A stretch of DNA of 64,000 bases. Source: a virus. The translations under genes were made by a program, and so were the position numbers. The DNA is taken from the IMG/VR virus record IMGVR_UViG_3300017917_003893, positions 79,337-143,336 of that record; one strand, 5' to 3'. Positions 3,825 through 60,529 of this stretch are shown here, one piece after another; the stretch's first letter is position 1; every line of letters begins with the position of its first letter. The notes under the pieces were generated by a model. That model did not search any database. It was not told where the DNA came from and saw only the letters and a list, made by a program, of their open reading frames with translations.

Positions 3825-4226
3825 ATGAGAAAAAAGATAGGAAGAACTGAAATTATATCATTACCTGATTTTGGAATATTCGGGTTATCAGCAAAAGTTG
3901 ACACCGGGGCCTATGGTGTAGCTTTACATGTTGATACTATAAAAATAGATAATGATAAGCTTTACTTTACTATTGATAATAAAGAGTTTATATATGACAA
4001 GTTTAAAATGGTGTCCGTTAAAAGTTCTTTTGGTAAAGTTCAAAAAAGATTTTCTATTATGACTAAAATATTAATCGGTGACAAGATATATAAATTTTAT
4101 GTATCTTTGACCAATAGAAAGAACATGAGATATCCTATTCTAATAGGTAGAAGATTTTTGTATAAATTTGACTATTTAGTAGATGTTAAGAAAAAGAATA
4201 TAAATGATACAGTTAAAAAGATGTAA
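3825..4226 (+). CDS. Retropepsin-like aspartic protease (RimK-associated 'Zn protease' family)
   Basis: AKVDTGA and LTNRKNMRYPILIGR motifs. Confidence 0.8.
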   Translation: MRKKIGRTEIISLPDFGIFGLSAKVDTGAYGVALHVDTIKIDNDKLYFTIDNKEFIYDKFKMVSVKSSFGKVQKRFSIMTKILIGDKIYKFYVSLTNRKNMRYPILIGRRFLYKFDYLVDVKKKNINDTVKKM

Positions 4227-4743
4227 TTATATTACGGGTGATCCAAATGAATTAGGATTTGCTGTTTCTGATATCGTTAAGTTTCTTGAAACTGATGGTA
4301 GAAATGCTCTATTGTTTACTCCACCAAGAGCTACAACTGAAGATAAAAAAGGAGTTTCTACATCTATAAAATATATTTTTAGTAATCAATTCACTTTTGA
4401 TAATTTTAATCAGTTTTCAGAGATAATTGCCAATAGGTCTAATTTATTTAGAGTTGATTTATTAGTCTTTGATTTTTATCACCTTTCTCCTTGGCAAATT
4501 TCTGATTATAAGAAATTAATAGATGAATTAAATATAGACCATATTATAATAGCCAAAGAATATCATTACAAAACTTCTGATGATGTTAATGATTTTCGTG
4601 TTAGAAGAGAATACAAAGACCTAAATAAAAGTGAAACTCACATAACTGATAATATAAATAAGTGGACTTCTACACTTAAATCTTTATCTGTATCTTATAT
4701 AAGAGATAAAAAAATCGACAATATATTTGGTAGTGATGAATAG
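4204..4743 (+). CDS. Hypothetical protein, possibly degenerate RecA-like fold, with C-terminal RDKKIDNIF tag
   Basis: VDLLVFD Walker-B-like strand; C-terminal motif. Confidence 0.55.
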   Translation: MIQLKRCNYITGDPNELGFAVSDIVKFLETDGRNALLFTPPRATTEDKKGVSTSIKYIFSNQFTFDNFNQFSEIIANRSNLFRVDLLVFDFYHLSPWQISDYKKLIDELNIDHIIIAKEYHYKTSDDVNDFRVRREYKDLNKSETHITDNINKWTSTLKSLSVSYIRDKKIDNIFGSDE

Positions 4744-4749
4744 TATTAC

Positions 4750-4757
4750 TATATTTG
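4750..4757 (+). promoter_or_regulatory. Bacteroidota-type -7 promoter element TAnnTTTG
   Basis: TATATTTG upstream of the 4786 ORF. Confidence 0.55.
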
Positions 4758-4785
4758 CTTCATTAGCAATATAATATAAATATTA

Positions 4786-5886
4786 ATGAGAATTAGAAGA
4801 AAGTTTCTACAACTTACACGGTATACATATCCTTATGGTACCGAATCATTCCTTAAATCATACTTACCTGAAGGTATTAAAAAAGACCAATATGGTAACT
4901 ATTACTATGTTATTGGTGATAAACCAACAACAATGTTTACCTGTCACTTAGATACGGCTTGTGGTAAACAAGATAAGGTTAAACACGTTATTAATAATAA
5001 CATAATTAAGACAGATGGTAAAACTATACTTGGTGCTGATGATAAGGCAGGTATGGTTGTTTTGCTTTATATGATTGAAAATAAAATACCTGGACTATAT
5101 TATTTCTTTATTGGTGAAGAAGTTGGTTGTATAGGTTCTGGTAATTTATCATCTACTTGGGCTGATACTGAATTTAGTTATTATGTATCAAAAGTTGTTT
5201 CATTTGACAGAAGAAGTACTTGTTCTGTTATCACTCATCAATGGTATGGTCGTTGTTGCTCTAATGAATTTGCTGAAGAATTGTCAAGTAGACTAAATGG
5301 TGCTGGTTTTAATCTTAAATTAAAGCCAGATGATACTGGTGTTCTAACAGATTCTGCTCAATTTATGGATATTGTTCCAGAGTGTACAAATATATCAGTT
5401 GGTTACAATTATGAACACACAACATCTGAATATCAAGATATTGATTATTTAAGTAGACTATGTAAGTCAGTGTGTTTAATTGACTGGGAAACACTTCCTG
5501 TTGAAAGAGATCCCTATGAAGAATCTATTTTTAGTGATTCACCAGGTTGGGATGATGATATTAATCACTCAAATGATTCTGAATTTGTAGAAGATTTCTA
5601 TTCTTATTTTTCAGTAGATGGTGAGACTAAAAAGATGTATATTTCCAAGGATGTGATTACTAAAGAAATTGAATTAATTACTGATTGGCTCAAATCACAA
5701 GATGGATATAGTGATGTTTCAACTATTAACTGGAATGGAAATACTCTTTATGTCGATAGTGAGTCCGGTGGTTATAATTTTATAGGTAGTCGAACTGATA
5801 TTATGGAGTTTATTACTGAATTATGTTCAGTTTCCAATTCAAAAGTAACTGATAAAATTAAGACCAAGAAGAATATGGTTTTTTAA
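4786..5886 (+). CDS. M28/M20-family zinc metallopeptidase
   Basis: HLDT, GADDKAG, GEE, SFDR and EH metal-ligand motifs. Confidence 0.8.
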   Translation: MRIRRKFLQLTRYTYPYGTESFLKSYLPEGIKKDQYGNYYYVIGDKPTTMFTCHLDTACGKQDKVKHVINNNIIKTDGKTILGADDKAGMVVLLYMIENKIPGLYYFFIGEEVGCIGSGNLSSTWADTEFSYYVSKVVSFDRRSTCSVITHQWYGRCCSNEFAEELSSRLNGAGFNLKLKPDDTGVLTDSAQFMDIVPECTNISVGYNYEHTTSEYQDIDYLSRLCKSVCLIDWETLPVERDPYEESIFSDSPGWDDDINHSNDSEFVEDFYSYFSVDGETKKMYISKDVITKEIELITDWLKSQDGYSDVSTINWNGNTLYVDSESGGYNFIGSRTDIMEFITELCSVSNSKVTDKIKTKKNMVF

Positions 5887-6047
5887 GACAATCTTGGTTT
5901 TTTATATGAGTCCTGAGAAACTATCTCTAGCATTTGTCTAGTTGATAGTTCTTTTGGATTCCATCCTTTTTTTCTTGAATATTGATGGATGAATTTTTCT
6001 CTAAGCAGAGAAACTTCTTCTTTTGTGAGTCTTATTTTATTGTTCAT
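5883..6047 (-). CDS. Small hypothetical protein (54 aa, not in ORF track)
   Basis: MNNKIRLTKEEVSLLREKF...KKPRLS; start overlaps the stop of 6044..6472. Confidence 0.6.
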   Translation of the reverse strand: MNNKIRLTKEEVSLLREKFIHQYSRKKGWNPKELSTRQMLEIVSQDSYKKPRLS

Positions 6048-6472
6048 AGTATAAATAAATAGATAAATATTTGAAGTAGTAAACCAACTGACATTCCAAT
6101 TGTTCTTCTTTTATATGTAGTTAATAGAGAAAATGGTGGAAATGTTTTTGATTCATCTGACCATCTTTTAGGATATAAGTTACTATCAAGTTTATTTCTT
6201 GTGTAGTAATAAGTTCCATTGTGAAAGAAAGGAAACATTATAACCATACAAAACAAACTTAAAAGTGAGTAGGTCCCTAATGTGTAAAAAAGAAATCCGC
6301 TGGTTAGCAGTAAAACAAGTAATCTTTGTAAATTAAATATTCTATTTAAGTTAAAATCACAAACTCTTTTACTTTTATTTTCATAGTTCCAGTAAAAACC
6401 TTCTCTAATACCTTCAGTTAGTGAGTATCCTATCCAGATAATATTTGTTATTAATAATGTTAATAGAATCAT
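6044..6472 (-). CDS. Membrane protein
   Basis: 3-4 hydrophobic segments; TAATATATA box upstream. Confidence 0.7.
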   Translation of the reverse strand: MILLTLLITNIIWIGYSLTEGIREGFYWNYENKSKRVCDFNLNRIFNLQRLLVLLLTSGFLFYTLGTYSLLSLFCMVIMFPFFHNGTYYYTRNKLDSNLYPKRWSDESKTFPPFSLLTTYKRRTIGMSVGLLLQIFIYLFIL

Positions 6473-6523: not shown

Positions 6524-6997
6524 ATGTTAGAAATGAAAGGTATATTAGAATTTGACCCAGTTAACGTAACTAGGAAGCACTTAGCACAGTCTTCTTGGAA
6601 GAGAACTGCTATGGTTCGTTTTGATTGTGACCTTTGGGCATACTACGCTTGGTTTATTGAAAGACGATTCAACTTAAAGTTAAATAAACCTTTAAGAGGA
6701 ACTCACTTGACTGTCATCAATGATAGATTTGAAAGTGATGAGCTTTACGCACAAGCCCGTCAATTATTTCACGGTAAAGAAATTACTGTAAAATATGATC
6801 CTACTCTTATTCGTGCTAATAATAAAGGTCACTGGTGGATAAATGCGGATAGTGATGATGCTAGAAATATCAGAAGTGTTATTGGATTAGATCCTAATCC
6901 TTACTTTGGCTACCACATCACTATTGGTTTGGCTACTCACTTACAATTAGAACACTCTAAATACATCTTAGACCAATGTATAAGATTCAATCTTTAA
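6524..6997 (+). CDS. 2H phosphoesterase superfamily protein
   Basis: Two HxT motifs (THLTVI, YHITIG). Confidence 0.7.
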   Translation: MLEMKGILEFDPVNVTRKHLAQSSWKRTAMVRFDCDLWAYYAWFIERRFNLKLNKPLRGTHLTVINDRFESDELYAQARQLFHGKEITVKYDPTLIRANNKGHWWINADSDDARNIRSVIGLDPNPYFGYHITIGLATHLQLEHSKYILDQCIRFNL

Positions 6998-7467
6998 TAG
7001 ACCATATTGAGAAAGTATATGGATTTGAAATTGTCCCTTGTTCAATACCAAGGGGCAATTTTCAATATTTTAAAAGATATATCTACCTATTTATACTTCA
7101 TAAAGTAAGTGAAAAGTTATTTTACTTTTTAAGAGATAAAGTCTCACCTATTAAATATTTAGATGAAAGACCGGATAAAGAACTTTGGTTTCGTAAAAGA
7201 AACTCAGAGGGTAGAGTATCTATTGAAGTTGAAATAAGACCAGTTCCTGTTGAAGCTTGTATTTATTTAAGTCATGATTCTGGTTTATTTAAGACTATGG
7301 ATGAAAACTATAAAGTTAAAATATATTGTCAACTTAGTGATGTTGAACATATATCATTTCCATTAAATCACATCAACGGTAATGAACAGATTGATTATTA
7401 CTTTTCTAAAATTAATGAACTTAAAGAAGAGTTGAGAAATTATAAATTAAATAATATTTTAAAGTGA
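6976..7467 (+). CDS. Hypothetical protein with C-terminal RNYKLNNILK tag
   Basis: ORF in operon; C-terminal motif. Confidence 0.65.
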   Translation: MYKIQSLIDHIEKVYGFEIVPCSIPRGNFQYFKRYIYLFILHKVSEKLFYFLRDKVSPIKYLDERPDKELWFRKRNSEGRVSIEVEIRPVPVEACIYLSHDSGLFKTMDENYKVKIYCQLSDVEHISFPLNHINGNEQIDYYFSKINELKEELRNYKLNNILK

Positions 7468-8099: not shown

Positions 8100-8885
8100 A
8101 TGCCAGAACTTGCAGAAATAAAAATAATGTCAGATTACATCAACGAAAATTGTAAAAATAAAACTTTTACAAAAGCATATCACGTTGAAAAAGGCAACAA
8201 TCCTGTTGACTTTAATTTAATTGAAAACTTTAATGTTGAAGCCGAATCCAACGGTAAAGAACTCATAGTCAAAATGTATCATGATGATACATGTATTAAT
8301 CTATCAGTTTTTATGGGTATGTCTGGTAATTGGTTATTTACTCCAACTGAAACTTGGTCAGAAAGAAAATTCACAAGATTTAGATTAGATACAACTGATG
8401 GCAATTCACTACTTCTTTATGGTCTTTATATGGGTCCTAAATATAGAGTAGGTGGATTTACAGGAGTTAAAAGAGGCGTAGATCCTACAAAAGATTTTGA
8501 AGCATTTAAGAATACTGTTTTAGATAATCTAGATAAGAAGATATTTGATAAACCTATCTGTGAGGCACTATTAGACCAAAAGTATTTTAATGGAATTGGC
8601 AACTATCTTAGAAGTACTATTCTTTATTATTTAGATGTTAATCCATTTGAAACCGCTAGAACAGTCATTAAATCAAATACACAAGTTTTAGATATGTGTA
8701 GAGATATTCCTATGAAAGCATATGAACTAAACGGTGGTCAACTACAAGACTGGAAAAATCCATTTGATACTGATTATGAAGAATTTCAAAAATGGGTTTT
8801 TTATCAAAAAGGAATTTCTTGTAAAGATAAAACAGGTAGAACCTTTTGGTATAATGAAAAATGGAAAGAATATTGTCCTTACTAA
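8100..8885 (+). CDS. Fpg/Nei DNA glycosylase/AP lyase, NEIL1-like
   Basis: N-terminal MPELAE; GKEL; GMSG; H2TH LLDQKYFNGIGNYLR; zincless-finger-like DKTGRTFWY. Confidence 0.85.
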   Translation: MPELAEIKIMSDYINENCKNKTFTKAYHVEKGNNPVDFNLIENFNVEAESNGKELIVKMYHDDTCINLSVFMGMSGNWLFTPTETWSERKFTRFRLDTTDGNSLLLYGLYMGPKYRVGGFTGVKRGVDPTKDFEAFKNTVLDNLDKKIFDKPICEALLDQKYFNGIGNYLRSTILYYLDVNPFETARTVIKSNTQVLDMCRDIPMKAYELNGGQLQDWKNPFDTDYEEFQKWVFYQKGISCKDKTGRTFWYNEKWKEYCPY

Positions 8886-8915: not shown

Positions 8916-9398
8916 GTGTTTGATTTAAATTTTAATACTATACATGGTGATGATAAAACTGGTAGAACTAGATTTCTACTAGAGTTATCGTCTATTTTAA
9001 AATCATATGGTTTTAAAATATTCTTTTTAGGATGTACAAGTGAATTTGAAAACGCAAAAAGAAGTGGTGATTTATCTTCTTTTGATGACTTTAGAATAAT
9101 ATCAACAAGTGATGATTTTAATAATCTAAAAATAATTGAAGTTATAAATGAAATAACTGATACAAAAAGTTATGATTATCTAATAGTAGATGATATTGAT
9201 TATTTATCAGATAACTGTATAAATTCAATAATTAAAACAAAAGTTAAAAAAGTTATTACTTGTTTAAGTGATAATAAAAAAAGATTACCAGAAAGTTCAA
9301 CATTTTATAATATCACTGATATTAAAGATATGACTAAGATTAATGATTATATTAAAACTTTAGTCAGAGACCAAAAAATTAATTCTATACTTAAATGA
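8916..9398 (+). CDS. Degenerate P-loop NTPase-like protein with C-terminal RDQKINSILK tag
   Basis: IHGDDKTGRT (Walker A with R for K); YLIVDD Walker B. Confidence 0.6.
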   Translation: MFDLNFNTIHGDDKTGRTRFLLELSSILKSYGFKIFFLGCTSEFENAKRSGDLSSFDDFRIISTSDDFNNLKIIEVINEITDTKSYDYLIVDDIDYLSDNCINSIIKTKVKKVITCLSDNKKRLPESSTFYNITDIKDMTKINDYIKTLVRDQKINSILK

Positions 9399-15513: not shown

Positions 15514-15542
15514 AAAACCTCTGATAAATCAGAGGTTTTTTT
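15514..15542. terminator. Bidirectional intrinsic terminator
   Basis: aaaacctctgat-aa-atcagaggtttt. Confidence 0.8.
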
Positions 15543-36370: not shown

Positions 36371-36505
36371 ATGTCTGTTTGGGAAAATATACCTCTCATT
36401 GATAGAGAATCTATAAAAAAATCTTTGTATAGATTGAATAGAATTCAAAGTAGGAAAAATAAAATTAATAGTATATTTAATGAAGTTAGGAAAGAAGTCA
36501 AGTAA
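36371..36505 (+). CDS. Small protein (44 aa, not in ORF track) with RKNKINSIF tag
   Basis: MSVWENIPLIDRESIKKSLYRLNRIQSRKNKINSIFNEVRKEVK. Confidence 0.55.
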   Translation: MSVWENIPLIDRESIKKSLYRLNRIQSRKNKINSIFNEVRKEVK

Positions 36506-36749
36506 TTTAGAACCTGGTTATGTTTTTGCTCCTTATATTCCAGTGACTTCATCACAAGTAATAGTTGATTACAGTTCTTCTAAAAGAGTTAACAGAAAAA
36601 GAAAGATTAATAACATATTTGATTTGGGTTTAGATATTAAAGATTATGATATATTCTCACCAAGTAAATCAATTATGAGTAGATATTCTAAAAAGATTAT
36701 AAATGCTAATTATTACGGAACTATAGAAATAAAAAAACCCACTTATTAA
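36480..36749 (+). CDS. Mini-protein resembling the C-terminus of T4-like major capsid protein, with inserted RKRKINNIF tag
   Basis: EPGYVFAPYIP and FSPSKSIMSRYSKKIINANYYG resemble gp23-family C-terminal motifs. Confidence 0.6.
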   Translation: MKLGKKSSNLEPGYVFAPYIPVTSSQVIVDYSSSKRVNRKRKINNIFDLGLDIKDYDIFSPSKSIMSRYSKKIINANYYGTIEIKKPTY

Positions 36750-38915: not shown

Positions 38916-39344
38916 TTAATTTAATATCTCGTTTATTTGATTTTCTCTTAGTGATTGTAAATCAATATCAGTTTCAACAGCTTCATAGAAGCTCATTCTA
39001 ACCATTTTGTAATACTTTTCACATTCTTCTTCATTAGCCATAGGATGTAGTTTGTTTTCGTAATTATCCCATCTGTTTTTTGATTCTGGCTTGCCGTATT
39101 TGGCTATTAATGATTCATTAAACTCTTCATATTCACTTACATCAACATTTAAAGAATCTTCTAAATCATATGAATATTCTGATAGTGAACACTCTTTATA
39201 TTCTTTTATGTTTAATTCATATACTTTTTTTTCAGCTTCTTGTTTTGTGAATACAATTAAGCTAGGACTACCACCTTCTGTTTCACTGTAGATGTTATCA
39301 TCATACTCAAATCCTTTTTTTAAAATTACAAATCCTTTTTTCAT
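38916..39344 (-). CDS. Hypothetical protein with C-terminal RENQINEILN tag
   Basis: GFEYDD motif; C-terminal motif. Confidence 0.65.
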   Translation of the reverse strand: MKKGFVILKKGFEYDDNIYSETEGGSPSLIVFTKQEAEKKVYELNIKEYKECSLSEYSYDLEDSLNVDVSEYEEFNESLIAKYGKPESKNRWDNYENKLHPMANEEECEKYYKMVRMSFYEAVETDIDLQSLRENQINEILN

Positions 39345-45477: not shown

Positions 45478-45930
45478 ATGGAAGGTCGTAAGTTAAAAAA
45501 TTCAGATGCTCTTAAATTTATGTTTGCTGGTAAATCTATTTTTACTTTTGTAAACACACAATCTGGTAATCGTTTTACTTTTAAAATTAAAGCCGCAAAG
45601 GATTCTAATTTATTCTTTGTTAGTGTATTAACTAATCCTGATACTTATACTTATATTGGTACTTGTATTGAAGGTAACTTCAAACATGGTCGTAAATCAA
45701 GTGTTTCTCAAGACGCTCAATCAGTAAAAGTATTTCAATATGTTTTGGCTAAATTAAAACTAGGTACTTTACCTGATTTTATTGAAGTTTGGCACGAGGG
45801 TCACTGCGGTAAATGTGGAAGACGTTTAACAGTTCCTTCTTCTATTGAAAATGGCTTGGGTCCTGAGTGTATTAAAACTTTGTCTAAGTCAGAAAAGCGT
45901 GATAAATTTTTAGAACTAATATTAGCATAA
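45478..45930 (+). CDS. DUF6011-like Zn-ribbon protein with C-terminal RDKFLELILA tag
   Basis: CGKCGRRLTVPSSIENGLGPEC. Confidence 0.75.
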   Translation: MEGRKLKNSDALKFMFAGKSIFTFVNTQSGNRFTFKIKAAKDSNLFFVSVLTNPDTYTYIGTCIEGNFKHGRKSSVSQDAQSVKVFQYVLAKLKLGTLPDFIEVWHEGHCGKCGRRLTVPSSIENGLGPECIKTLSKSEKRDKFLELILA

Positions 45931-46881: not shown

Positions 46882-46929
46882 TTTATTTTATTTTATTTTT
46901 GTAATCCCTTAGTATTAAAGGGATTTATT

Positions 46930-49540: not shown

Positions 49541-49541
49541 A

Positions 49542-50436: not shown

Positions 50437-50446
50437 TATTTATATA

Positions 50447-50947: not shown

Positions 50948-51264
50948 TTGAATTTATGTGGAAAGATGTGTCTCCATTCATGTCCTTGAGGAACATCAGA
51001 TGCTTTAACACCAAATATCTTTTTTTCTGGACAAGTGTCCTGACCGTTCATTAAGAAATTATTATTACAAGCCCAAACTTCAGCAGTTCTATTTAATAAC
51101 TGACCTATTGAGAAAGGAAAACGCATACCCGTTTCATTTTCAATGTTAGTAATTCTACCATCTGGTGATTTAGTAACAACAATTTCTAATCTTGGGTTTC
51201 TTTTATTAGTAAATCTAATTTCTCTTTCGTGTAAACCTTCGTTATATGATTTTAAGTGTTTCAT
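50944..51264 (-). CDS. Hypothetical protein
   Basis: MKHLKSYNE N-terminus. Confidence 0.65.
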   Translation of the reverse strand: MKHLKSYNEGLHEREIRFTNKRNPRLEIVVTKSPDGRITNIENETGMRFPFSIGQLLNRTAEVWACNNNFLMNGQDTCPEKKIFGVKASDVPQGHEWRHIFPHKFK

Positions 51265-51986
51265 TATCTTTTAACTAATTTTACTACAACTTGTTGGTCA
51301 CCACCACCAATATTGAATTTAAGACCATCTTCCCAAGCTTCATTTCTAATAGTGATTAACTCTCTATCAACAGCATCTGTCGTCATATCAAGTGTTAATT
51401 CACCTCTTCCAATTTTACTTAGTTTATTAGAAACACCAAAGTCAAAGTAATTTCTTGAATCTGCTTTAGAGAATTTTATTTCTAACCAATTTCCTTTAAT
51501 ACTTTGTCTTTTCCAACCTTTCTTCTTAATAGCTTCTCCAATTCTTTTAATATAATCATCTATTTTACTAATTTGAGAATCTTCTGATTTAATCATATCA
51601 CCTAGTGTTATAAACTCAACAGTTAGACCCATATAACTTGTGTTAATTGTATAGTTAATGTCTTCACCAGATAAATCATAAAATTTTTGAATATCTAATA
51701 AAGTATTTGATAACATTTCAAGATCCGTCAAACATTTACCCATATTTAATTGAATACCATCAGTTTTACCAACTCTTAAAGTAATTAATTTAGCTCTTCT
51801 ATATTTAGAAATATCTTTAATATAAGTAGTGTCTTCTACAAATCTACCATCATATACTAAACCATTTTTAATTTTAAGAGCATCCGGATTCTCATCTGTA
51901 TAGTCTGTAAAGAATAATTGAATATCTTCATCAGTATTCTTGAATGTAACGGCTTCTGCCTCATTAAATTTTCTTAAATGTTTCAT
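51264..51986 (-). CDS. Hypothetical protein
   Basis: MKHLRKFNE N-terminus; late box 4 nt upstream. Confidence 0.65.
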   Translation of the reverse strand: MKHLRKFNEAEAVTFKNTDEDIQLFFTDYTDENPDALKIKNGLVYDGRFVEDTTYIKDISKYRRAKLITLRVGKTDGIQLNMGKCLTDLEMLSNTLLDIQKFYDLSGEDINYTINTSYMGLTVEFITLGDMIKSEDSQISKIDDYIKRIGEAIKKKGWKRQSIKGNWLEIKFSKADSRNYFDFGVSNKLSKIGRGELTLDMTTDAVDRELITIRNEAWEDGLKFNIGGGDQQVVVKLVKR

Positions 51987-52015: not shown

Positions 52016-52888
52016 TTAGAAACAAGAAAGGTACCTTTCTCCTCTATCACATAATATAGTAATTATGTTACCTTCAATATTTGGATATTTTTCTAGCAAT
52101 CTTTCTGACGCTAAAATATTAGCACCTGAACTGATACCTACAAATAAACCTTGTTCTTTAGATAATCTTCTAGCTCTTTCTTTTGCTTCTTCTGTTGATA
52201 TAACAATAATATCGTCAACTTCTTTTAAATCGACTAAGAATTTAGAACCATCGCCAATTCCTTGAATCCCGTGAAGACCTGGCTCACCACCTGACATAAC
52301 AGGTGATTCTGCTGGTTCAACTGCTACAGTTTTCATATTTCCGTGATACATCTTTAAAATACGAGAAGTACCCATAAGAGTACCTCCAGTTCCTGTACCA
52401 TCCACAAATGCTGCAATTTTATTAGTATGTTGATGTAAAATTTCTACGGCTGTTCCTTTTTCATGTGCCTCAATATTTAGAGGGTTACTAAATTGTTTAG
52501 GATTAAAATAGCCATTTTCTTCAGCTAACTTGTCTCTTAAAGCAATAGCATCATCGAACTTTCCATCTTCAACTTCGATAAGTTCAGCACCATAGAGTCT
52601 TAACATTTGTTTACGTTCTTCGGACATATTTCTAGGCATTACAATAATACATTTATAGCCTCTTTCTGCTGCTAAAAATGCAAATGCTATTCCAGAGTTA
52701 CCTGATGTTGCTTCGATTATTGTATCACCTTTTTTAATTAAACCATTTTTTTCTGCGTTATTTATTATATATGATGCCATTCTATCTTTTATTGAACCGC
52801 TTGGATTAGCACCTTCAAATTTTGCGTATATTCTTTCAGAGATTTTGATTAATGGTGTTTGACCCACACCTTTAGATAGATTTGACAT
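52016..52888 (-). CDS. cysK: Cysteine synthase (PLP-dependent)
   Basis: NPSGSIKDR, EATSGNSG, GTGGT, HGIQGIG, GISSG, DRGERYLS. Confidence 0.9.
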   Translation of the reverse strand: MSNLSKGVGQTPLIKISERIYAKFEGANPSGSIKDRMASYIINNAEKNGLIKKGDTIIEATSGNSGIAFAFLAAERGYKCIIVMPRNMSEERKQMLRLYGAELIEVEDGKFDDAIALRDKLAEENGYFNPKQFSNPLNIEAHEKGTAVEILHQHTNKIAAFVDGTGTGGTLMGTSRILKMYHGNMKTVAVEPAESPVMSGGEPGLHGIQGIGDGSKFLVDLKEVDDIIVISTEEAKERARRLSKEQGLFVGISSGANILASERLLEKYPNIEGNIITILCDRGERYLSCF

Positions 52889-52986: not shown

Positions 52987-53598
52987 ATGAGACACGATAA
53001 ACAAAACATACATTTTATAAGTGACCTTCACATAGGTCATAAGAATGTTATAAAATTTGACGGTAGACCTTTTGCTGATGTAGAAGAAATGCATGTTGAA
53101 TTAATAAAAAGATGGAACTCGGTTGTAGAACCAGAAGATACGGTTTACTTCTTAGGTGATTTAAGTTTCTCTCGTGATGAACTAACAAAATGGTTTATTC
53201 ACTCATTACAAGGTAAAATTCACTTTATTTGTGGAAACCATGATAAGATGAAGGATATTCAAAAGTTTGGTCGTTGGGAAAGTGTACACGAAGGTTACAC
53301 TGAGATTGGAATTCTAGACAAAGATTCTATTGAGTCTAGAGGCTCACAAGGATATCAAAAGATAATTCTTTCACACTATCCTATTTTGAGTTGGAACAAA
53401 GCTCACTATGGTTCTTGGCATCTTCATGGTCACTGTCACGGTAATTTGATGAAGTCAAACCAAGATTATTACAAAAGAAAAGTAATGGATGTTGGTTGTA
53501 ACTGTATTGATTATACTCCGATTTCATACGAACAAGTAAAGTCAATAATGAGTAAAAAAACAATTTCATCAGTAGACCATCACGGTACCGATATGTAA
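52987..53598 (+). CDS. Calcineurin-like metallophosphoesterase
   Basis: SDLH, LGD, GNHD, HYP, HGHCH. Confidence 0.85.
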   Translation: MRHDKQNIHFISDLHIGHKNVIKFDGRPFADVEEMHVELIKRWNSVVEPEDTVYFLGDLSFSRDELTKWFIHSLQGKIHFICGNHDKMKDIQKFGRWESVHEGYTEIGILDKDSIESRGSQGYQKIILSHYPILSWNKAHYGSWHLHGHCHGNLMKSNQDYYKRKVMDVGCNCIDYTPISYEQVKSIMSKKTISSVDHHGTDM

Positions 53599-53762
53599 TG
53601 AAAGACTTATATAACAGACTTGCTATCTTAAAGATTATTCTTAACTCTCATTACGGTATCAATACTGTTACTAATGTTTATGAAGAATCATATAAGATAA
53701 GAAAGAAGATAAACACGTTAAAAAACAGAAAAGAGAAAATTAATCGTATATTCAATGTCTGA
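53598..53762 (+). CDS. Mini-protein (54 aa, not in ORF track) with PolB motif-B-like helix and RKEKINRIF tag
   Basis: MKDLYNRLAILKIILNSHYG...KNRKEKINRIFNV; TAATG coupling upstream, overlaps next start. Confidence 0.65.
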   Translation: MKDLYNRLAILKIILNSHYGINTVTNVYEESYKIRKKINTLKNRKEKINRIFNV

Positions 53763-54084
53763 ATTTGAAATGGGTGATAGGTTGGTTTGTATCAAAGAAT
53801 ACAAAACACTTAAAGTTGGTTCACACTATGCCATTAAAGGTTGTGGTAACCTAGAGTATAGTGCTGATCCAGAAGTAAATGGAAAGAAAGGCTATGGCTT
53901 TTGTGTAGAAGATGAAATGTATGGCTCATTTTCAGGTAAAAAAGATTGGTGGAATTTGCCATATAATGAAAAGATTAAATGGTATTATTTCACCGAAAAA
54001 GAAATGTCTGAATATTTTATTACTGAACAAGAAGATTATAAATCTTATTTAAGAGACGAGAAAATAAAACAAGTGCTTAGTTAA
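53755..54084 (+). CDS. Hypothetical protein with C-terminal RDEKIKQVLS tag
   Basis: C-terminal motif. Confidence 0.65.
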   Translation: MSEFEMGDRLVCIKEYKTLKVGSHYAIKGCGNLEYSADPEVNGKKGYGFCVEDEMYGSFSGKKDWWNLPYNEKIKWYYFTEKEMSEYFITEQEDYKSYLRDEKIKQVLS

Positions 54085-54085
54085 T

Positions 54086-54955
54086 ATGAGAGACGTAAAA
54101 GGTTTTTGTAAACTAATGGATATAAGTGTTCCTGATTATGAACACTTTGATTATTATATTGACCAGCTTTCTAAAACAGAAAAGTGGAAAAATATAAAAG
54201 AACTTACTAAATTATTTGAACATGCTGAAGAAAAATATGGCGATCTTTATGATTATCGTTTTAAGAAGGCAAATGAGATTATTGAATACTTAAAAAATAC
54301 TAGAGCTTATAACGAGCTTATCTATGATAATTTAATTCCTGACTATCCAACAACTAAAAACTTTGAGTATTCAGAGAATAAGAAATATATTTCTATTGAT
54401 ATTAAAAAAGCAAACTGGGTAGTTTTGAAAAAATACGATCCAGAGTTTGCTCCTGAATTGGGAATTTCATATGAAGATTTTATATCTAAGTTTGATGTAC
54501 CTGAAATATTCAATCATTCAAAGCAACTAAGACAGTTTATTTTTGGTAATATAAATCCAAAAAGGCAAATGAAGGCTCAACGAGTTATTATTCAAGAATT
54601 GTTAGACAAATACAATCATTTGAATCTTGATACTGCTTGTATTAAAAATGATGAAGTTATTTATTCATTTGATACATTTGACCAAATTGATGAAATCTTA
54701 AATACGGTTGATAGAAATCAATTTAAAATTAAACTTTTTACAGTTGAAAGAATACAAGATTTCCGAATCAATACATACTTATCTGAGAAAGGTGATACAA
54801 TGTTTAAGGAAATGGTAGGATGTAATGGTAATCTTTTCTTCTTATATTTAAAGAAATACATATTAAAAGAACCCCTTGATGTTAGAGATTTGTTTTTCAA
54901 AATGGATGGTAATATTGCTATTTGGAACATTGAAGGTTTAAAAGTGAGTCTATGA
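54086..54955 (+). CDS. Hypothetical protein, possible divergent polymerase-palm fold
   Basis: YISIDIKKAN and KNDEVI acidic motifs. Confidence 0.55.
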   Translation: MRDVKGFCKLMDISVPDYEHFDYYIDQLSKTEKWKNIKELTKLFEHAEEKYGDLYDYRFKKANEIIEYLKNTRAYNELIYDNLIPDYPTTKNFEYSENKKYISIDIKKANWVVLKKYDPEFAPELGISYEDFISKFDVPEIFNHSKQLRQFIFGNINPKRQMKAQRVIIQELLDKYNHLNLDTACIKNDEVIYSFDTFDQIDEILNTVDRNQFKIKLFTVERIQDFRINTYLSEKGDTMFKEMVGCNGNLFFLYLKKYILKEPLDVRDLFFKMDGNIAIWNIEGLKVSL

Positions 54956-55212
54956 ATATAATTAAAGTAAACGTTTATTATAATAATAGAGAAACACTAT
55001 TTGAATCATTTTCAGTTACTGCTGATATCTATAACTTAGATGATGCTAGAATGTTAGTATTAGACCATCTTAGTAGTTTTTATTCTGATGTGAAATACAA
55101 ATTAAATCTAAATAAATCATTTAATGGTGAAATTATGATTAATCTAGATTTTGAAGAAAATATAAGTTTATCACGAGAAATTAAATTAAGAAAAATATTT
55201 AATAATGATTGA
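54952..55212 (+). CDS. Hypothetical protein with C-terminal REIKLRKIF tag
   Basis: C-terminal motif. Confidence 0.6.
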   Translation: MNIIKVNVYYNNRETLFESFSVTADIYNLDDARMLVLDHLSSFYSDVKYKLNLNKSFNGEIMINLDFEENISLSREIKLRKIFNND

Positions 55213-56714: not shown

Positions 56715-57107
56715 ATGATATTAATTCCAAGTAAAATCTATGTAGACAAATCACCTATACATGGGTGGGGCGTTTTTGCAAAAGAAAAAATACTAAAAAA
56801 TGAGATAATAGAAGAGTGTCCAATTATTCAATTACCTATTGAAAAAGATGATGATACTTCTTTACTGATTGATTATAGGTTTAACTTTCCAACAGGCACA
56901 GATAATTGGAGTGAGCAAGTTATACCTCTAGGATACGGTTGTATTTATAATCACTCAAATAATCCAAATGCTTATTGGTATTCTATAGAAGATAAAAGAA
57001 CTTTTATATTTATTGCTCATAGAGATATAGAGCCAGGTGAGGAAATATTTACTTACTATGGTGATGTTAACTATTGGAGTGACAGAACACATATTGATGT
57101 TAAATGA
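56715..57107 (+). CDS. SET-domain lysine methyltransferase
   Basis: HGWGVFA, YNHSNNPN, DIEPGEEIFTYYG. Confidence 0.9.
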   Translation: MILIPSKIYVDKSPIHGWGVFAKEKILKNEIIEECPIIQLPIEKDDDTSLLIDYRFNFPTGTDNWSEQVIPLGYGCIYNHSNNPNAYWYSIEDKRTFIFIAHRDIEPGEEIFTYYGDVNYWSDRTHIDVK

Positions 57108-57475
57108 CAAAAGAAAAATTCATAGATTTTATAAAAGAGTTAGGCTTCACTCAGACTTGGTCTAGTAAGCCTAACTCATATTCTTTATCTACTGATGTAG
57201 TAGGATTACCTAATCAAAACTATCAAGCTTTTTCAGACCAATTATCTATTCATATAGATGATGATAGAAATGTTTTCCAACTGTCATTACAACAAATGAG
57301 TAGTCACATGATTGGTGGTAAGAGCTTTGGTTATTTTAGCCTTAAAACATTTGGTGATAATAATGATTTTCAACTAGAGATTTTTTTAAGTTTTATCTTA
57401 GGTTCTTTTAATGAAAAGCCTATTCATATAATTAGCTATATGAGAGATAAAAAAATTCAAAATATTCTAAAATAA
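57104..57475 (+). CDS. Hypothetical protein with C-terminal RDKKIQNILK tag
   Basis: C-terminal motif. Confidence 0.65.
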   Translation: MTKEKFIDFIKELGFTQTWSSKPNSYSLSTDVVGLPNQNYQAFSDQLSIHIDDDRNVFQLSLQQMSSHMIGGKSFGYFSLKTFGDNNDFQLEIFLSFILGSFNEKPIHIISYMRDKKIQNILK

Positions 57476-57491: not shown

Positions 57492-57869
57492 ATGGATGCT
57501 GAAGTAATAATAGAAATGACTCCATTTATATTTGAAGATGGCAAGACATACTATTTTCAGATAGTAAAAAGAGATTATTCTAATGACTATCATGATATTT
57601 TTGTTTATGAGAAAATTTTAACAGAAGAAAAAAACTTTTGGGGTAGAATTAAAATTAAAGAAGAATTAGTTTTAATTAATAAAAAACCTGAACTTGTTTC
57701 TGTTAAATTGAACACAAGTGAAATTAAAAATGATATTAAGAAAATATTGATAGCCAATAAAGCTAATTATCAATTAAAAGATTGGGATGGATTTGTTGGT
57801 GATATACCTAATGATGCTAAAGTGGCTTTGAAGAGGGAGGCTTCACTTAAAAACATATTAGGAGAGTAA
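57492..57869 (+). CDS. Hypothetical protein with C-terminal REASLKNILG tag
   Basis: C-terminal motif. Confidence 0.65.
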   Translation: MDAEVIIEMTPFIFEDGKTYYFQIVKRDYSNDYHDIFVYEKILTEEKNFWGRIKIKEELVLINKKPELVSVKLNTSEIKNDIKKILIANKANYQLKDWDGFVGDIPNDAKVALKREASLKNILGE

Positions 57870-57879: not shown

Positions 57880-58362
57880 ATGATTAAATTTAGTGATATG
57901 GTTAGTGAAAGTGTAAGTACATCGGGGTTTAGATTAGGTTTGGATGTACATGGTGTTATAGATGCTATGCCTGATTTTTTTGCATTCTTAACGGACTCAT
58001 TTATTAAGAATGGTGGTGAGGTGCATATACTAACAGGTGGTCACTGGGATGAAAATTTTGATAAACAATTAAAAGACTTTGGAATTAAATGGACTCATAA
58101 ATTTTCAGTTTATGATCATTTAATTGAAACAAATGCTGGAATTGTTGGTGAGATTCAATTTCCAGATGGTACAATACAAAAGAAATTTGAAGATGGTCTT
58201 TGGGACCATGTTAAAGCAGATTACTGTAAGAAACACAATATTTCATTACATATTGACGATACTTTAATTTATAATGACTTTTTCTCAACACCATTTGCTA
58301 GATTGTGGTCACATAATCAAAAGCCAAAGGCATCACATAAAGATGTCAGACACTTAGACTAA
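57880..58362 (+). CDS. HAD-like protein
   Basis: GLDVHGVI, ILTG, HIDD. Confidence 0.6.
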   Translation: MIKFSDMVSESVSTSGFRLGLDVHGVIDAMPDFFAFLTDSFIKNGGEVHILTGGHWDENFDKQLKDFGIKWTHKFSVYDHLIETNAGIVGEIQFPDGTIQKKFEDGLWDHVKADYCKKHNISLHIDDTLIYNDFFSTPFARLWSHNQKPKASHKDVRHLD

Positions 58363-58841
58363 TGATTAATAAGATTAATAAATTTTTTGAATTTGATCCT
58401 TTTGAAAGTAAAATGAAAAAATCAGCTGGAGTTGCAATCGTTTTAAGAAACGAAAAAATATTACTTTGTCACCCATCAAACGCTAAGTGGTTTGGTTCAT
58501 ATTCTTTTCCAAAAGGTGGAATTGATGAAGGTGAAACTATAAAAGAAGCCGCTTTAAGAGAATTATTTGAAGAAACATCTGTTAAAGTTGATGAAAGTAG
58601 ACTTTCTAAAGAGCCTTTGGTAGTTGACTACATGAATTATAAAAAGAAAGATGTAGTTTATAAAAGAATATACCTTTATACTCTTTATATAAATGATATA
58701 TCAGAGATAGGTTTGGACTCAGAAGTTATTCCAAAAGAAAGATTACAATTAGAAGAAATTGACTGGGCTGGCTTTATTACAAAAGAAGAAGCAAAAACTA
58801 GAATCTTTCATAAAAGTATATCTGTATTAGATAAGTTATAA
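58362..58841 (+). CDS. Nudix hydrolase
   Basis: PKGGIDEGETIKEAALRELFEET. Confidence 0.9.
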   Translation: MINKINKFFEFDPFESKMKKSAGVAIVLRNEKILLCHPSNAKWFGSYSFPKGGIDEGETIKEAALRELFEETSVKVDESRLSKEPLVVDYMNYKKKDVVYKRIYLYTLYINDISEIGLDSEVIPKERLQLEEIDWAGFITKEEAKTRIFHKSISVLDKL

Positions 58842-58886: not shown

Positions 58887-59315
58887 ATGCCTTTTTTCAA
58901 TAATCTAAACAATTCTAATTTAAATTCTACTGTTAATAATACATCAATACCTATAGCAATGATGTATCAGTCAGAAGAAAAAATTGAAATAAATCTAGAC
59001 CATCCTATTTTTACTGTTTATGTTAATACTAAAAATTTAACAAGACAAGCAGCTGAAGAGTATTTATATAGAACAAAAAAGATGTTTGATGCTTACAAAA
59101 ATATAACTGTTTGGGTCTTATCATCCGATGAAAATAAAGTTGAATGTGTTTATGATGGTCAGTGTAGACAAAGAGATATGGAAATAAGTGGCTTAATAAA
59201 AGAAATAAATACAAGAATTGACATAATGTCTAAATCAAACTCTTTTGAAGATTTCAAAATTAACATTAGAGATTGGAGAATAAATGAACTTGTAAATGGC
59301 TCTAAGGAAGAATAA
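58887..59315 (+). CDS. Hypothetical protein with RDWRINELV tag
   Basis: Near-C-terminal motif. Confidence 0.6.
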   Translation: MPFFNNLNNSNLNSTVNNTSIPIAMMYQSEEKIEINLDHPIFTVYVNTKNLTRQAAEEYLYRTKKMFDAYKNITVWVLSSDENKVECVYDGQCRQRDMEISGLIKEINTRIDIMSKSNSFEDFKINIRDWRINELVNGSKEE

Positions 59316-59670
59316 AACAGAAATACTTGATAGAATAATCACCAAGGATGGACTTAGTGAGTCTTACGATTGGGGTCATTGGTATTGGGAAGATTATGAT
59401 TATCACGATGATTATTGTGATTGTTATGCCTGTATGCCTATTGATTATGATTATTTACCAGAGGAATTTCAACCTAAGGTAGTTACACATATTAGTAAAA
59501 GAGGAATAAGGGTTACAACATATTCATATCAACCTGGTAAAATGATAGACATGACATCTATCTATTCTAAAGAAGTGTTAAGACAAAAAAGAATTAACCA
59601 TATTTTAGGTATAGAATCAATGGAACATTCTCGTGTAACCTTAGGGGATATTTTGAATATTAAAAAATAA
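59296..59670 (+). CDS. Hypothetical protein with RQKRINHILG tag
   Basis: Motif; CDCYAC. Confidence 0.6.
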   Translation: MALRKNKTEILDRIITKDGLSESYDWGHWYWEDYDYHDDYCDCYACMPIDYDYLPEEFQPKVVTHISKRGIRVTTYSYQPGKMIDMTSIYSKEVLRQKRINHILGIESMEHSRVTLGDILNIKK

Positions 59671-59700
59671 TCCTTATCTTTGTATAACAAAATAAAAGAT

Positions 59701-59841
59701 ATGGATATTACAACAGTAGTTTCAGACGTTCTTGACAATCAAAGCTTGGATGTAAATTGTGTAGGTGATTTTCTTCAGATGGCTGAAGATTATAAATATC
59801 AACTCTTAATGGATGAACTCAACTCTGAGTTAAATTCATAA
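59701..59841 (+). CDS. Small acidic protein (46 aa, not in ORF track)
   Basis: MDITTVVSDVLDNQSLDV...; TATCTTTG at 59675-59682 upstream. Confidence 0.55.
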   Translation: MDITTVVSDVLDNQSLDVNCVGDFLQMAEDYKYQLLMDELNSELNS

Positions 59842-59847
59842 AAATAT

Positions 59848-59919
59848 GGTCGGGTGACCGAGTGTTTTAGGTGAAGGCCTGCAAAGCCTTTTACGGTGGT
59901 TAGAATCCATCCCCGACCT
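59848..59919 (+). tRNA. tRNA-Cys (GCA)
   Basis: Acceptor ggtcggg/cccgacc; anticodon arm aaggc-ctGCAaa-gcctt; T arm ggtgg-ttagaat-ccatc; U discriminator; CCA not encoded. Confidence 0.9.
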
Positions 59920-59932
59920 CTAATTTTATTTA

Positions 59933-60529
59933 ATGGTAAATTCATATAATTTAGGCAAAGTTCATACAAACTATTTAACTAGTGATGAGCTAAAAACAGA
60001 GTTTAGAGATTATAAGTTAAAAGTCTTGAATGGTGAAATTAGTTTTACACCATCAGAGAGGTTTATAGAGAGATATAGAGATACTTTATATTTCATTTCA
60101 GATAATCTTTCAAATGATATAATTAGTGGTTCACTTGCACTTAATATATTTGGTCTTATACACAGAGATTCAAATGATATTGATATTATCATAGATGATA
60201 AAAATAGATATCCTAAGTATGATAAAGATGGTTATGAAGATTTAGAATTTTCAACTGCTAACAGATTGGGTTATATTGAGTTCAAACACAAAAGAGGTAT
60301 TTTCACATCTGAAAAAAAATACAAAGTAGACTTTTTTCACAATGATTATGGTGCTTCATTTACCACATTTGATTTTAATGGTAAACAACTCAAAATTCAC
60401 AATCCTTTAGAAATTATTGATTATAAGTTAAATATGGCTATCAATAAAAAAACTGAAAGTTCTACTTCTCGTAAACACAATGAGGATTTGACTGGAATTT
60501 TTGGTCAAATGTCTTGGCAATTACTATAA
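59933..60529 (+). CDS. Pol-beta-type nucleotidyltransferase
   Basis: ISGSLAL...RDSNDIDI...VDFF. Confidence 0.7.
   Translation: MVNSYNLGKVHTNYLTSDELKTEFRDYKLKVLNGEISFTPSERFIERYRDTLYFISDNLSNDIISGSLALNIFGLIHRDSNDIDIIIDDKNRYPKYDKDGYEDLEFSTANRLGYIEFKHKRGIFTSEKKYKVDFFHNDYGASFTTFDFNGKQLKIHNPLEIIDYKLNMAINKKTESSTSRKHNEDLTGIFGQMSWQLL

What the first reader, a model, noticed from the sequence alone, without database searches (positions are those of the whole stretch)
4204..60529. A shared, mostly C-terminal peptide tag R-[DENKQ]-x-[KR]-[IL]-x-x-[IL]-[LF] on ~16 unrelated proteins
Seen near C-termini: RDKKIDNIF (4204), RNYKLNNIL (6976), RDQKINSIL (8916), RKNKINSIF (36371), RENQINEIL (38916), RDKFLELIL (45478), RKEKINRIF (53598), RDEKIKQVL (53755), REIKLRKIF (54952), RDKKIQNIL (57104), REASLKNIL (57492), RDWRINELV (58887). 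Seen internally: RKRKINNIF (36480), REEKLDGLI (45930), RQKRINHIL (59296), RDYKLKVLN (59933). Codons vary, so conservation is at protein level. None of these proteins carries the N-terminal motif below. Inference: an amphipathic docking helix that routes many small accessory proteins to one hub (phage scaffold, host protease/chaperone, RNAP or clamp), i.e. a modular addressing system I do not recognise as described.
Basis: partly seen in the sequence, partly recalled or inferred. Interest (0 to 1): 0.8.

Follow-up and report, generated by a model that had tools for sequence, protein, structure and literature searches.

The report
Shared C-terminal address tag, megaphage proteins
About one in ten proteins of this giant bacterial virus, all small, unrelated and not made late in infection, end in the same two-turn helix; it behaves like an address label read by one still unidentified partner, and I found no paper that describes it.

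Summary
Twelve window ORFs end in R-[DENK]-x-K-[IL]-x-x-I-[LF] followed by 1-8 polar residues. Two of the four 'internal' cases are good matches and two are weak.

On the 143-kb contig there are 12 strict matches against 0.24 in shuffles, and 9 against 0.01 at the C-end. Codons follow genome usage, and the DNA pattern occurs only in frame 0, so selection acts on the peptide.

The complete relative LR745206 carries the tag on about 140 of 971 ORFs. Their bodies are unrelated (131 of 133 are BLAST singletons). In viral contigs 66 of 93 in-ORF hits lie at a C-end; in cellular genomes 4 of 68 do.

Carriers lack the late promoter box (2/140 against 154/749 untagged ORFs) and never carry the N-terminal capsid-type leader. 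A sister phage, LR756504, uses a shifted tag (K at position 2, L at 8, stop directly after). That points to one reader that changes with the tag.

The tag is not the T4-type clamp tail, not a capsid-targeting leader and not an RNA signal.

This scan has noted the same tag on other fragments of this phage group.

The parts
4702..4728 (+). C-terminal tag of ORF 4204-4743 (179 aa), 4 aa before the stop
   Evidence: PSSM 20.1 bits. It is the most conserved stretch of the tail across 120 orthologues. In the AlphaFold model it forms the end of helix 158-175 on a RecA/KaiC-like core that lacks a Walker A motif.
7435..7461 (+). C-terminal tag of ORF 6976-7467 (163 aa), 1 aa before the stop
   Evidence: PSSM 21.9 bits. 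Tag residues R154 and K157 are invariant in 49 orthologues. It forms the end of helix 147-162 on an alpha+beta body with no clear PDB match.
9366..9392 (+). C-terminal tag of ORF 8916-9398 (160 aa), 1 aa before the stop
   Evidence: PSSM 22.7 bits. The body has only weak AAA_24/Sak4-like matches.
36452..36478 (+). Tag of the 44-aa ORF 36371-36505, 8 aa before the stop (Lys-rich, Phe-ending subtype)
   Evidence: PSSM 18.2 bits.
36594..36620 (+). Internal tag-like motif in ORF 36480-36749 (89 aa), a C-terminal fragment copy of the major capsid protein
   Evidence: PSSM 18.9 bits, 42 aa before the stop. Weak Gp23 family matches. By-eye alignment to the capsid protein tail.
38922..38948 (-). C-terminal tag of ORF 38916-39344 (142 aa), 1 aa before the stop
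   Evidence: PSSM 14.6 bits. It is the only minus-strand carrier in the window.
45898..45924 (+). C-terminal tag (degenerate) of ORF 45478-45930 (150 aa, DUF6011), 1 aa before the stop
   Evidence: PSSM 10.7 bits. DUF6011 and phrog_20259 matches.
53727..53753 (+). C-terminal tag of the 54-aa ORF 53598-53762, 2 aa before the stop
   Evidence: PSSM 18.4 bits.
54052..54078 (+). C-terminal tag of ORF 53755-54084 (109 aa), 1 aa before the stop
   Evidence: PSSM 16.4 bits.
55174..55200 (+). C-terminal tag of ORF 54952-55212 (86 aa), 3 aa before the stop
   Evidence: PSSM 17.3 bits.
57443..57469 (+). C-terminal tag of ORF 57104-57475 (123 aa), 1 aa before the stop
   Evidence: PSSM 20.1 bits.
57834..57860 (+). 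C-terminal tag (degenerate) of ORF 57492-57869 (125 aa), 2 aa before the stop
   Evidence: PSSM 12.1 bits.
59268..59294 (+). C-terminal tag (degenerate) of ORF 58887-59315 (142 aa), 6 aa before the stop
   Evidence: PSSM 12.1 bits.
59581..59607 (+). Tag in ORF 59296-59670 (124 aa), followed by a 20-aa tail
   Evidence: PSSM 12.3 bits. The LR745206 counterpart at 269176-269556 also has the tag with a 22-aa tail.

Best explanation
The peptide is a portable C-terminal recognition tag: the last two turns of an amphipathic helix, h-R-[DE]-x-K-[IL]-[ND]-x-I-[LF], followed by a short polar tail. In this group of roughly 600-kb Bacteroidota-type megaphages, selection keeps it on about 10-15% of all proteins. 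The carriers are small (median 110 aa), unrelated to each other, fast-evolving, and not transcribed from late promoters.

Arg1, Ile/Leu5, Ile8 and Leu/Phe9 fall on one face of the helix, flanked by an acidic and a basic edge. I infer that this face plugs into a groove of one common trans-acting reader. The tag consensus shifts in concert between sister phage clades, and no cellular protein shows the same terminal bias.

The tag would act either as a timed degron or as the tether of adaptor or decoy proteins. I give this about 0.25-0.3 on its own. Candidates are the phage's own PrkA/YeaG-type protease, ClpS, a ClpA-like ATPase and ClpP.

Shown here: the tag, its scale, its protein-level selection, its terminal bias, its exclusion from late genes and leader proteins, and its clade-specific consensus. 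Inferred: a single reader. Speculative: its identity.
For: Enrichment and terminal bias:
- about 140 ORFs of LR745206 score at least 8 bits, against 1.6 in shuffles.
- Independent viral data: 66 of 93 in-ORF hits lie within 10 aa of a stop.
- Cellular genomes as negative control: 4 of 68.

Protein-level selection:
- Codon usage at tag positions equals genome usage.
- 36 of 39 DNA-pattern hits are in frame 0 and none is intergenic.
- Tag residues are invariant or nearly so across 60 and 49 orthologues at 46-84% identity.

Unrelated bodies:
- 131 of 133 are BLAST singletons.
- Only a handful of the 139 carriers scanned match any family: 5 Pfam and 8 PHROG families, each hit by one carrier.
- Two modelled carriers have different folds, each with the tag at the end of the last helix.

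Not late:
- The late box lies within 70 nt upstream of 2/140 carriers, against 154/749 untagged ORFs and 34/82 leader genes (p = 1e-10).
- On the window's own contig the counts are 0/15, 43/144 and 9/18.

Concerted clade shift between LR745206 and LR756504 (p from 1e-8 to 1e-16):
- Position 2 is D/E in 64% against 11%.
- Position 2 is K in 7% against 49%.
- Position 8 is I in 58% against 20%.
- The stop follows directly in 10% against 56%.

Proteolysis lead:
- PrkA is present in all three tag-bearing complete genomes and in none of five tag-free ones.
- ClpS has the same pattern in the local BLAST comparison (one tag-bearing genome beside LR745206, four tag-free ones). ClpP is shared by the tag-bearing genomes but not specific to them.
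- PrkA/YeaG is reported as an ATP-dependent protease and as the driver of bulk cytoplasmic proteolysis (PMC9512850, PMC13684143).
Against: - No reader was identified and no binding was tested.
- PrkA is only one of 34 gene families with the same presence/absence pattern.
- The three tag-bearing genomes are relatives, so the pattern may be a single evolutionary event.
- PrkA was not found on a 476-kb tag-bearing viral contig rated 97% complete.
- ClpP also occurs in tag-free Lak-B5 and LR756500.
- Classical C-terminal degrons sit at the very end with a free nonpolar carboxyl terminus. In this clade 1-8 polar residues usually follow the tag.
- A single site shared by about 140 proteins would also fit a transport or modification machine.
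Confidence: 0.55

Rival explanations
1. The tag docks early proteins onto a replication or transcription hub: a T4-type sliding clamp, the host beta clamp or RNA polymerase. The model is the C-terminal clamp-binding tails of T4 gp43, gp55 and gp33.
For: - The phage is T4-related: it has a gp23-type capsid protein, a gp55-like late sigma, a gp44-like clamp loader and UvsX.
- T4 clamp-binding tails are also C-terminal, 1-5 aa from the end.
- The spacing of hydrophobic residues (h-x-x-h-h) resembles PIP-type motifs (my own knowledge).
- In LR745206 a tagged 53-aa ORF overlaps the end of the gp55-like gene.
Against: - The DNA polymerase C-terminal halves do not end in the tag. LR745206, LR756504 and LR756500 end in different short hydrophobic, Phe-containing tails, without the tag's Arg1 and Lys4.
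- The T4 tails (S-L-D-F-L-[FY]) lack Arg1 and Lys4.
- The gp55-like sigma itself is untagged.
- No clamp gene was detected with three Pfam models.
- About 140 small proteins competing with the polymerase for one site seems harmful (inference).
Confidence: 0.12
2. The tag loads proteins into or onto the capsid. It would be a C-terminal counterpart of the T4 capsid-targeting leader, of scaffold C-terminal helices or of encapsulin cargo peptides.
For: - Some carriers are fragment copies of the major capsid protein or of its large neighbour gene.
- In two capsid-protein paralogues a tag-like stretch aligns by eye with a helix of the capsid protein itself.
- Terminal targeting peptides for HK97-fold shells are known (my own knowledge).
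Against: - Carrier genes almost never have the late promoter box that precedes structural and leader genes (2/140 against 34/82).
- The tag and the N-terminal leader are mutually exclusive.
- Most carriers sit in tight operons with nucleotide-metabolism and other non-structural genes.
Confidence: 0.08
3. There is no external reader. The helix acts within or between the carriers, as a generic stabilising C-cap, an oligomerisation or condensate-forming element, or a by-product of how new small genes arise and move.
For: - Carriers are very young: 94% have no homologue in two sister genomes.
- One face of the helix carries complementary charges on its two edges (inference).
- Tags are gained and lost between orthologues.
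Against: - Arg1 was fixed by the search pattern, but Lys4 and the hydrophobic positions 5, 8 and 9 are conserved across hundreds of unrelated bodies, and Arg1 and Lys4 are invariant within two orthologue families. That is tighter than a generic cap needs.
- The consensus differs sharply between clades yet is uniform within a genome.
- Nine residues with two or three core positions are too short for a stable coiled coil (inference).
- DNA identity between tags is too low for recombination sites.
Confidence: 0.15
4. The conservation is at the nucleotide level, as a translation-initiation or coupling signal for the next gene or as a terminator, or it is a composition artefact of a K/I/N-rich proteome.
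For: - 72% of carrier genes abut or overlap the next gene.
- The tag start lies 25-35 nt before the next start codon in about half of the cases.
- The genome has 29% G+C.
Against: - Shuffles give 0.01-0.24 matches against 9-12 observed.
- Arg, Leu and Ile codons at tag positions follow genome usage, including CGN and CTN codons.
- The DNA pattern is never intergenic and almost never in another frame.
- The distance to the next start ranges from 16 to more than 1000 nt.
- Tags are kept in orthologues on other contigs; their gene neighbourhoods were not compared.
Confidence: 0.02

Closest known systems
Capsid-targeting sequence (CTS) of phage T4 internal proteins IPI-III and Alt
   Same: Both are short terminal peptides shared by otherwise unrelated phage proteins that act as a portable address. 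This phage also has a CTS-like N-terminal leader on many late genes.
   Different: The CTS is N-terminal, sits on late, packaged proteins and is clipped by the prohead protease. This tag is C-terminal, sits on genes without late promoters, never co-occurs with the leader and has no obvious cleavage site.
C-terminal sliding-clamp-binding tails of T4 gp43 and gp55 (and gp33)
   Same: Both are short, hydrophobic-faced peptides within a few residues of the C-terminus of several unrelated proteins of a T4-type phage, all read by one ring-shaped hub (for the T4 sequences).
   Different: The consensus differs: no Arg1 or Lys4 in T4, and no S-L-D-F-L-[FY] here. The megaphage polymerase tails are of another type. 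There are a handful of carriers in T4 against about 140 here.
ssrA-type degrons and the SspB XB tether peptide read by ClpX/ClpA (my own knowledge)
   Same: Both are C-terminal peptides that deliver many unrelated proteins, or their adaptors, to one AAA+ machine. The tag-bearing phages encode ClpS, a ClpA-like ATPase, ClpP and PrkA.
   Different: The tag is encoded in each gene rather than added by tmRNA. It is helical, has conserved charged residues, and in this clade is usually followed by 1-8 polar residues instead of ending in a free nonpolar terminus. No degradation was tested.
Poxvirus ankyrin/PRANC (F-box-like) proteins (my own knowledge)
   Same: Both are large sets of fast-evolving viral accessory proteins with variable bodies and a common short C-terminal helical module that plugs them into one hub.
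   Different: PRANC proteins are eukaryotic-virus proteins. They are paralogous in their bodies, and their module is longer and binds Skp1. Here the bodies are unrelated and the hub is unknown.

Membership tests
T4-type sliding-clamp-binding tail | Lies within a few residues of the C-terminus | tested here: met
   The tag lies 0-10 aa from the stop in 70 of 84 strict matches in LR745206 and in 12 window ORFs. T4 gp43 and gp55 tails are 1 and 5 aa from the end.
T4-type sliding-clamp-binding tail | Consensus S-L-D-F-L-[FY] as read from T4 gp43 and gp55 | tested here: not met
   The tag logo has Arg1, [DE]2, Lys4, [IL]5, I8 and [LF]9. T4 tails have none of Arg1 or Lys4.
T4-type sliding-clamp-binding tail | Present on the phage's own replicative DNA polymerase | tested here: not met
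   The polymerase C-terminal halves of LR745206, LR756504 and LR756500 end in other short hydrophobic, Phe-containing tails. The LR745206 tail did not reach 4 bits with the tag PSSM.
T4-type sliding-clamp-binding tail | Binds a phage-encoded clamp | not testable with these tools
   No clamp gene was found with PF09116, PF02916 or PF02768, although a gp44-like loader exists. No complex prediction is available.
T4 capsid-targeting sequence | N-terminal position | tested here: not met
   The tag is C-terminal. The N-terminal leader occurs on other proteins, and 1 of 140 overlap where about 12 are expected.
T4 capsid-targeting sequence | Carried by late, virion-packaged proteins | tested here: not met
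   The late promoter box lies upstream of 2/140 carriers against 34/82 leader genes. The window's contig gives 0/15 against 9/18. Packaging itself was not tested.
ssrA/ClpX-ClpA type C-terminal degron | Extreme C-terminal position with a free nonpolar end | tested here: inconclusive
   In this clade only 10% of tags end the protein. In LR756504 56% do, ending in Leu or Ile.
ssrA/ClpX-ClpA type C-terminal degron | Confers degradation by an AAA+ protease | not testable with these tools
   Only co-occurrence is available: PrkA in 3/3 tag-bearing against 0/5 tag-free genomes, and ClpP in 3/3 against 2/5.
PIP box (Q-x-x-[ILM]-x-x-[FY]-[FY]) | Gln at position 1 and an aromatic pair at positions 7-8 | tested here: not met
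   The corresponding tag positions are [DENK] and I-[LF]. Phe occurs in 16% and Gln in 1 of 79. The PIP consensus is from my own knowledge.

The most novel reading that the evidence does not exclude
Megaphages run a genome-wide, two-label protein sorting code. An N-terminal leader marks late cargo for the capsid. A C-terminal helix marks about 140 early accessory proteins for one phage-encoded reader that co-evolves with the tag. Several of these accessory proteins are truncated or degenerate copies of the phage's own capsid, capsid-neighbour and RecA-like proteins. In the boldest form, the tagged proteins are adaptors or decoys that bind host defence or housekeeping proteins and deliver them, or themselves, to a phage AAA+ protease such as PrkA. 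That would be a viral targeted-degradation system in bacteria, analogous to poxvirus F-box adaptors.
Probability: 0.15. Interest if true: 0.9.

Novelty: new variant of a known kind. Interest (0 to 1): 0.72.

Why it matters
Most megaphage genes are 'dark matter' with no recognisable function. A single peptide that marks one gene in seven to ten, is under strong selection and changes in step within each phage lineage gives a sequence-readable handle on that dark matter.

It defines a functional class (non-late, small, fast-evolving accessory proteins) and predicts one hub protein whose identification would explain many genes at once. It also offers a short portable tag that could be tested directly with reporter fusions.

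Tried and rejected
- Chance or composition: rejected by whole-protein and tail-only shuffles and by the mid-protein control (0.4% against 14.8%).
- Nucleotide-level signal: rejected by codon usage and frame analysis.
- Paralogy of carriers: rejected.
- Function from families: Pfam and PHROG searches on 10 window carriers, 61 viral-contig carriers and 139 LR745206 carriers were almost blank.
- Host proteins with the same C-terminal tag: none. The one scan of 185,579 species' genomes gave internal hits only, many of them one recurring conserved internal stretch that I took, from memory and without a test, to be the iron transporter FeoB.
- Clamp: three Pfam clamp models found nothing.
- Similarity of the tag to the C-terminal helix of primary sigma factors: recalled from memory only. 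The phage sigma-70-like protein of LR745206 does not end in the tag. Not pursued.
- ClpP as a co-occurring reader: weakened, because ClpP is also in tag-free Lak-B5 and LR756500.
- Fold of the second carrier: no Foldseek match at E <= 0.001, and the best VIA-align Z is 7.0, in the range of common arrangements. Weak portal rows were not confirmed.
- Family profiles of two carriers find other carriers only through the tag, at E 0.001-0.1.
- Literature: two full-text searches found no description. That is a limited search, not proof of absence.

Full report
**What the window is.** The window is the last 64 kb of a 143,336-bp linear viral contig with 29.5% G+C.
- Its gp23-type major capsid protein is 72-73% identical to those of the uncultured 634-kb and 642-kb phages LR745206 and LR756502.
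- It is 54% identical to those of LR756504 and the 735-kb LR756501.
- It is about 30% identical to those of Lak phages and Tenacibaculum phage PTm1.
- The window encodes the N-terminal half of a family-B DNA polymerase, helicases, a DnaB-like protein, ribonucleotide reductase, thymidylate synthase, UvsX, tail fibres and many small ORFs without family matches.

**Checking the observation.** The coordinates in the finding are ORF starts. The motifs lie at the ORF ends.
- All twelve 'C-terminal' cases are there, 1-8 residues before the stop.
- Two 'internal' cases are strong matches (36594-36620 and 59581-59607).
- The other two score below 12 bits, the cut-off for listing an internal match, with a position matrix built from LR745206.
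- On the whole contig the strict pattern occurs 12 times in 177 ORFs, against 0.24 in 2000 shuffles. It occurs 9 times within 8 residues of the stop, against 0.01.
- With the matrix, 15 of 177 ORFs carry a C-terminal tag.

**Protein-level, not DNA-level.**
- Arg is coded by AGA, AGG, CGT and CGA. Leu is coded by TTA, CTT, CTA and TTG. Ile is coded by all three codons.
- Over 79 tags the codon counts equal genome-wide usage.
- In LR745206 a degenerate DNA pattern for the tag hits 39 times: 36 in frame 0 of an ORF (31 at the C-end), none in intergenic DNA, and none for the reversed control pattern.
- The distance to the next start codon clusters at 25-35 nt only because genes are tightly packed. 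It ranges up to more than 1000 nt.

**Scale and distribution.**
- I fetched the complete LR745206 genome. Of its 971 ORFs, 84 match the strict pattern, 70 of them within 10 residues of the stop. A further 21 end in a variant that closes with L-G-I.
- With the matrix, 140 ORFs score at least 8 bits (1.6 expected) and about 160 score at least 6 bits (3.8 expected).
- A scan of 2.9 million viral contigs with a narrow DNA pattern returned large AT-rich contigs. Of 93 in-ORF hits there, 66 lie within 10 residues of a stop.
- The same pattern in one genome of each of 185,579 prokaryote species gave 68 in-ORF hits, with only 4 near a stop. This is a clean negative control.
- With a loose pattern, the last 22 residues match in 14.8% of LR745206 ORFs, 10.2% of this contig's and 10.4% of LR756504's.
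- The same loose pattern matches only 2.0% in LR756501, 0.6% in LR756500, 0.6% in PTm1 and 1.3% in pT24. Mid-protein windows give 0.4-2.1%.

**The carriers.**
- They are small (median 110 aa) and mostly lack transmembrane segments.
- They are unrelated: without their last 20 residues, 131 of 133 are BLASTP singletons.
- 94% have no homologue in LR756504 or LR756501, against 69% of untagged ORFs.
- Family searches are almost blank.
- Two window carriers do have large orthologue families in metagenomes (214 and 185 proteins). In both, the tag residues are invariant or nearly so, while the residues after the tag vary.
- AlphaFold models of these two differ in fold. ORF 4204-4743 has a RecA/KaiC-like alpha/beta core without a Walker A motif. 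ORF 6976-7467 has an alpha+beta body with no convincing PDB match.
- In both models the tag is the end of the last helix.
- Several carriers with any detectable homology are fragment or degenerate copies of the phage's own core proteins. Three capsid-protein fragments on this contig carry a tag, and a fourth capsid paralogue has a weak tag-like stretch near its N-terminus. In LR745206 one carrier is a piece of the large gene next to the capsid gene. The ORF 4204-4743 protein has the RecA-like fold.

**Timing.**
- In LR745206 a late-type box (A/T-rich, T4-late-like) lies within 70 nt upstream of 34/82 genes with the N-terminal leader and 154/749 untagged genes. It lies upstream of only 2/140 tagged genes, which is the random-window rate (p = 1e-10).
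- On this contig the figures are 9/18, 43/144 and 0/15.
- Walking up each operon, the nearest promoter-like box of tagged genes is most often the Bacteroidota-type -7 box (44%), against the late box in 12%.
- 72% of tagged genes abut the preceding gene.
- The tag and the leader are mutually exclusive (1 of 140, about 12 expected).
- Tagged genes are therefore non-late, probably early. This inference rests on promoter-like motifs only.

**A reader that changes with the tag.**
- LR756504 escaped my first DNA pattern. De novo motif counting then showed that it has its own version on about 99 ORFs.
- Its version has Lys instead of Asp/Glu at position 2 and Leu instead of Ile at position 8, and the stop codon follows directly in 56% of cases (10% in LR745206). 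All differences have p between 1e-8 and 1e-16.
- Because the carriers are unrelated and mostly not orthologous between the two phages, a uniform consensus within each genome that differs between genomes argues for one common constraint per genome, that is, a reader.

**Which hub?** I tested the clamp idea against real sequences.
- T4 gp43 and gp55 end in S-L-D-F-L-[FY] plus 1-5 residues.
- The megaphage polymerase is split. Its C-terminal halves end in other short hydrophobic, Phe-containing tails without Arg1 or Lys4.
- The gp55-like sigma is untagged, although in LR745206 a tagged 53-aa ORF overlaps its end.
- No clamp gene was detected, but a gp44-like loader was.
- I therefore rate the clamp low.

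Capsid targeting is disfavoured by the timing result.

I then looked for phage genes that track the tag.
- 34 untagged LR745206 families are shared with LR756504 and absent from four tag-free genomes.
- The best conserved is a PrkA/YeaG-type AAA+ protein (65% identity). It is present in all three tag-bearing complete genomes and three tag-bearing contigs, and in none of five tag-free genomes. It was also missing from a 476-kb tag-bearing contig.
- ClpS shares the pattern. ClpP does not fully.
- PrkA is reported as an ATP-dependent protease (PMC9512850), and YeaG as the driver of bulk cytoplasmic proteolysis in starving E. coli (PMC13684143).
- This makes a proteolysis-linked reader my first guess, but it rests on a phyletic pattern that may be one evolutionary event.

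**Novelty.**
- Two full-text searches found no description.
- Earlier notes of this scan record the same tag on other fragments of this phage group, and different C-terminal tags in other megaphage clades.
- My added results are:
  - the cellular negative control;
  - the promoter-class exclusion;
  - the concerted shift in LR756504;
  - the comparison with polymerase and T4 tails;
  - the list of 34 candidate readers.

Noticed in passing
window 10785, 13300, 15541-16200(-), 18194-18715(-), 40106, 41855, 48920-51986(-), 61780-63144(-): Many ORFs start with an N-terminal leader of the type M-[KR]-x-L-K-x-[FY]-x-x-F. In LR745206 such genes are enriched for a late-type promoter box (34/82) and never carry the C-terminal tag.
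   Followed up: partly
LR756501.1 (loci L163-L199), e.g. record 44452-46983, 154863-158564: The 735-kb sister phage lacks the tag but has 112 copies of another peptide, D-P-Y-G-E-E-x-W. It often lies right after the N-terminal leader, is repeated 3-4 times inside some proteins, and lies exactly 9-11 aa from the C-end in about 12.
   Followed up: no
contig G000 71773-72513, 75219-75419, 77427-78221(-); window 36480-36749: Four truncated paralogue pieces of the gp23-type major capsid protein are scattered near and far from the real capsid gene (G000 64950-66623). Three carry the tag, and in two paralogues a tag-like stretch aligns by eye with a helix of the capsid protein.
   Followed up: partly
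window 11720-13246; LR745206 232803-234344 and 130568-131992(-): The family-B DNA polymerase is split into an N-terminal half and a C-terminal half encoded about 100 kb apart in the complete relative.
   Followed up: partly
window 56715-57107, 58362-58841, 8100-8885, 52016-52888(-): Recognisable enzymes sit among the tagged ORFs, and none carries the tag: a SET-domain protein, a NUDIX hydrolase, an Fpg/Nei-type DNA glycosylase and a PLP-dependent (cysteine-synthase-like) enzyme.
   Followed up: no
LR745206 480112-482034; also LR756502, LR756504 and three IMG/VR contigs: These megaphages encode a full-length PrkA/YeaG-type AAA+ protein (PF08298 + PF06798), 65% identical between LR745206 and LR756504. 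It is absent from five tag-free relatives.
   Followed up: partly
contig G000 53954-54319 and LR745206 189151-189649: A 121-aa gp55-like late sigma factor is present. In LR745206 its 3' end overlaps a 53-aa tagged ORF in another frame. On this contig the corresponding ORF has lost the tag.
   Followed up: partly
window 46930-48156(-): The UvsX-like recombinase ends in an acidic tail closing with D-D-I-F-G. This resembles the end of the LR745206 polymerase tail more than it resembles the tag.
   Followed up: no
LR756500.1 (loci L367-L390): Nine proteins share a C-terminal stretch of the type K-Y-x-H-x-x-N-A-D-x-F-G-F-x-D. I did not check whether it is a small tag or a paralogue family.
   Followed up: no
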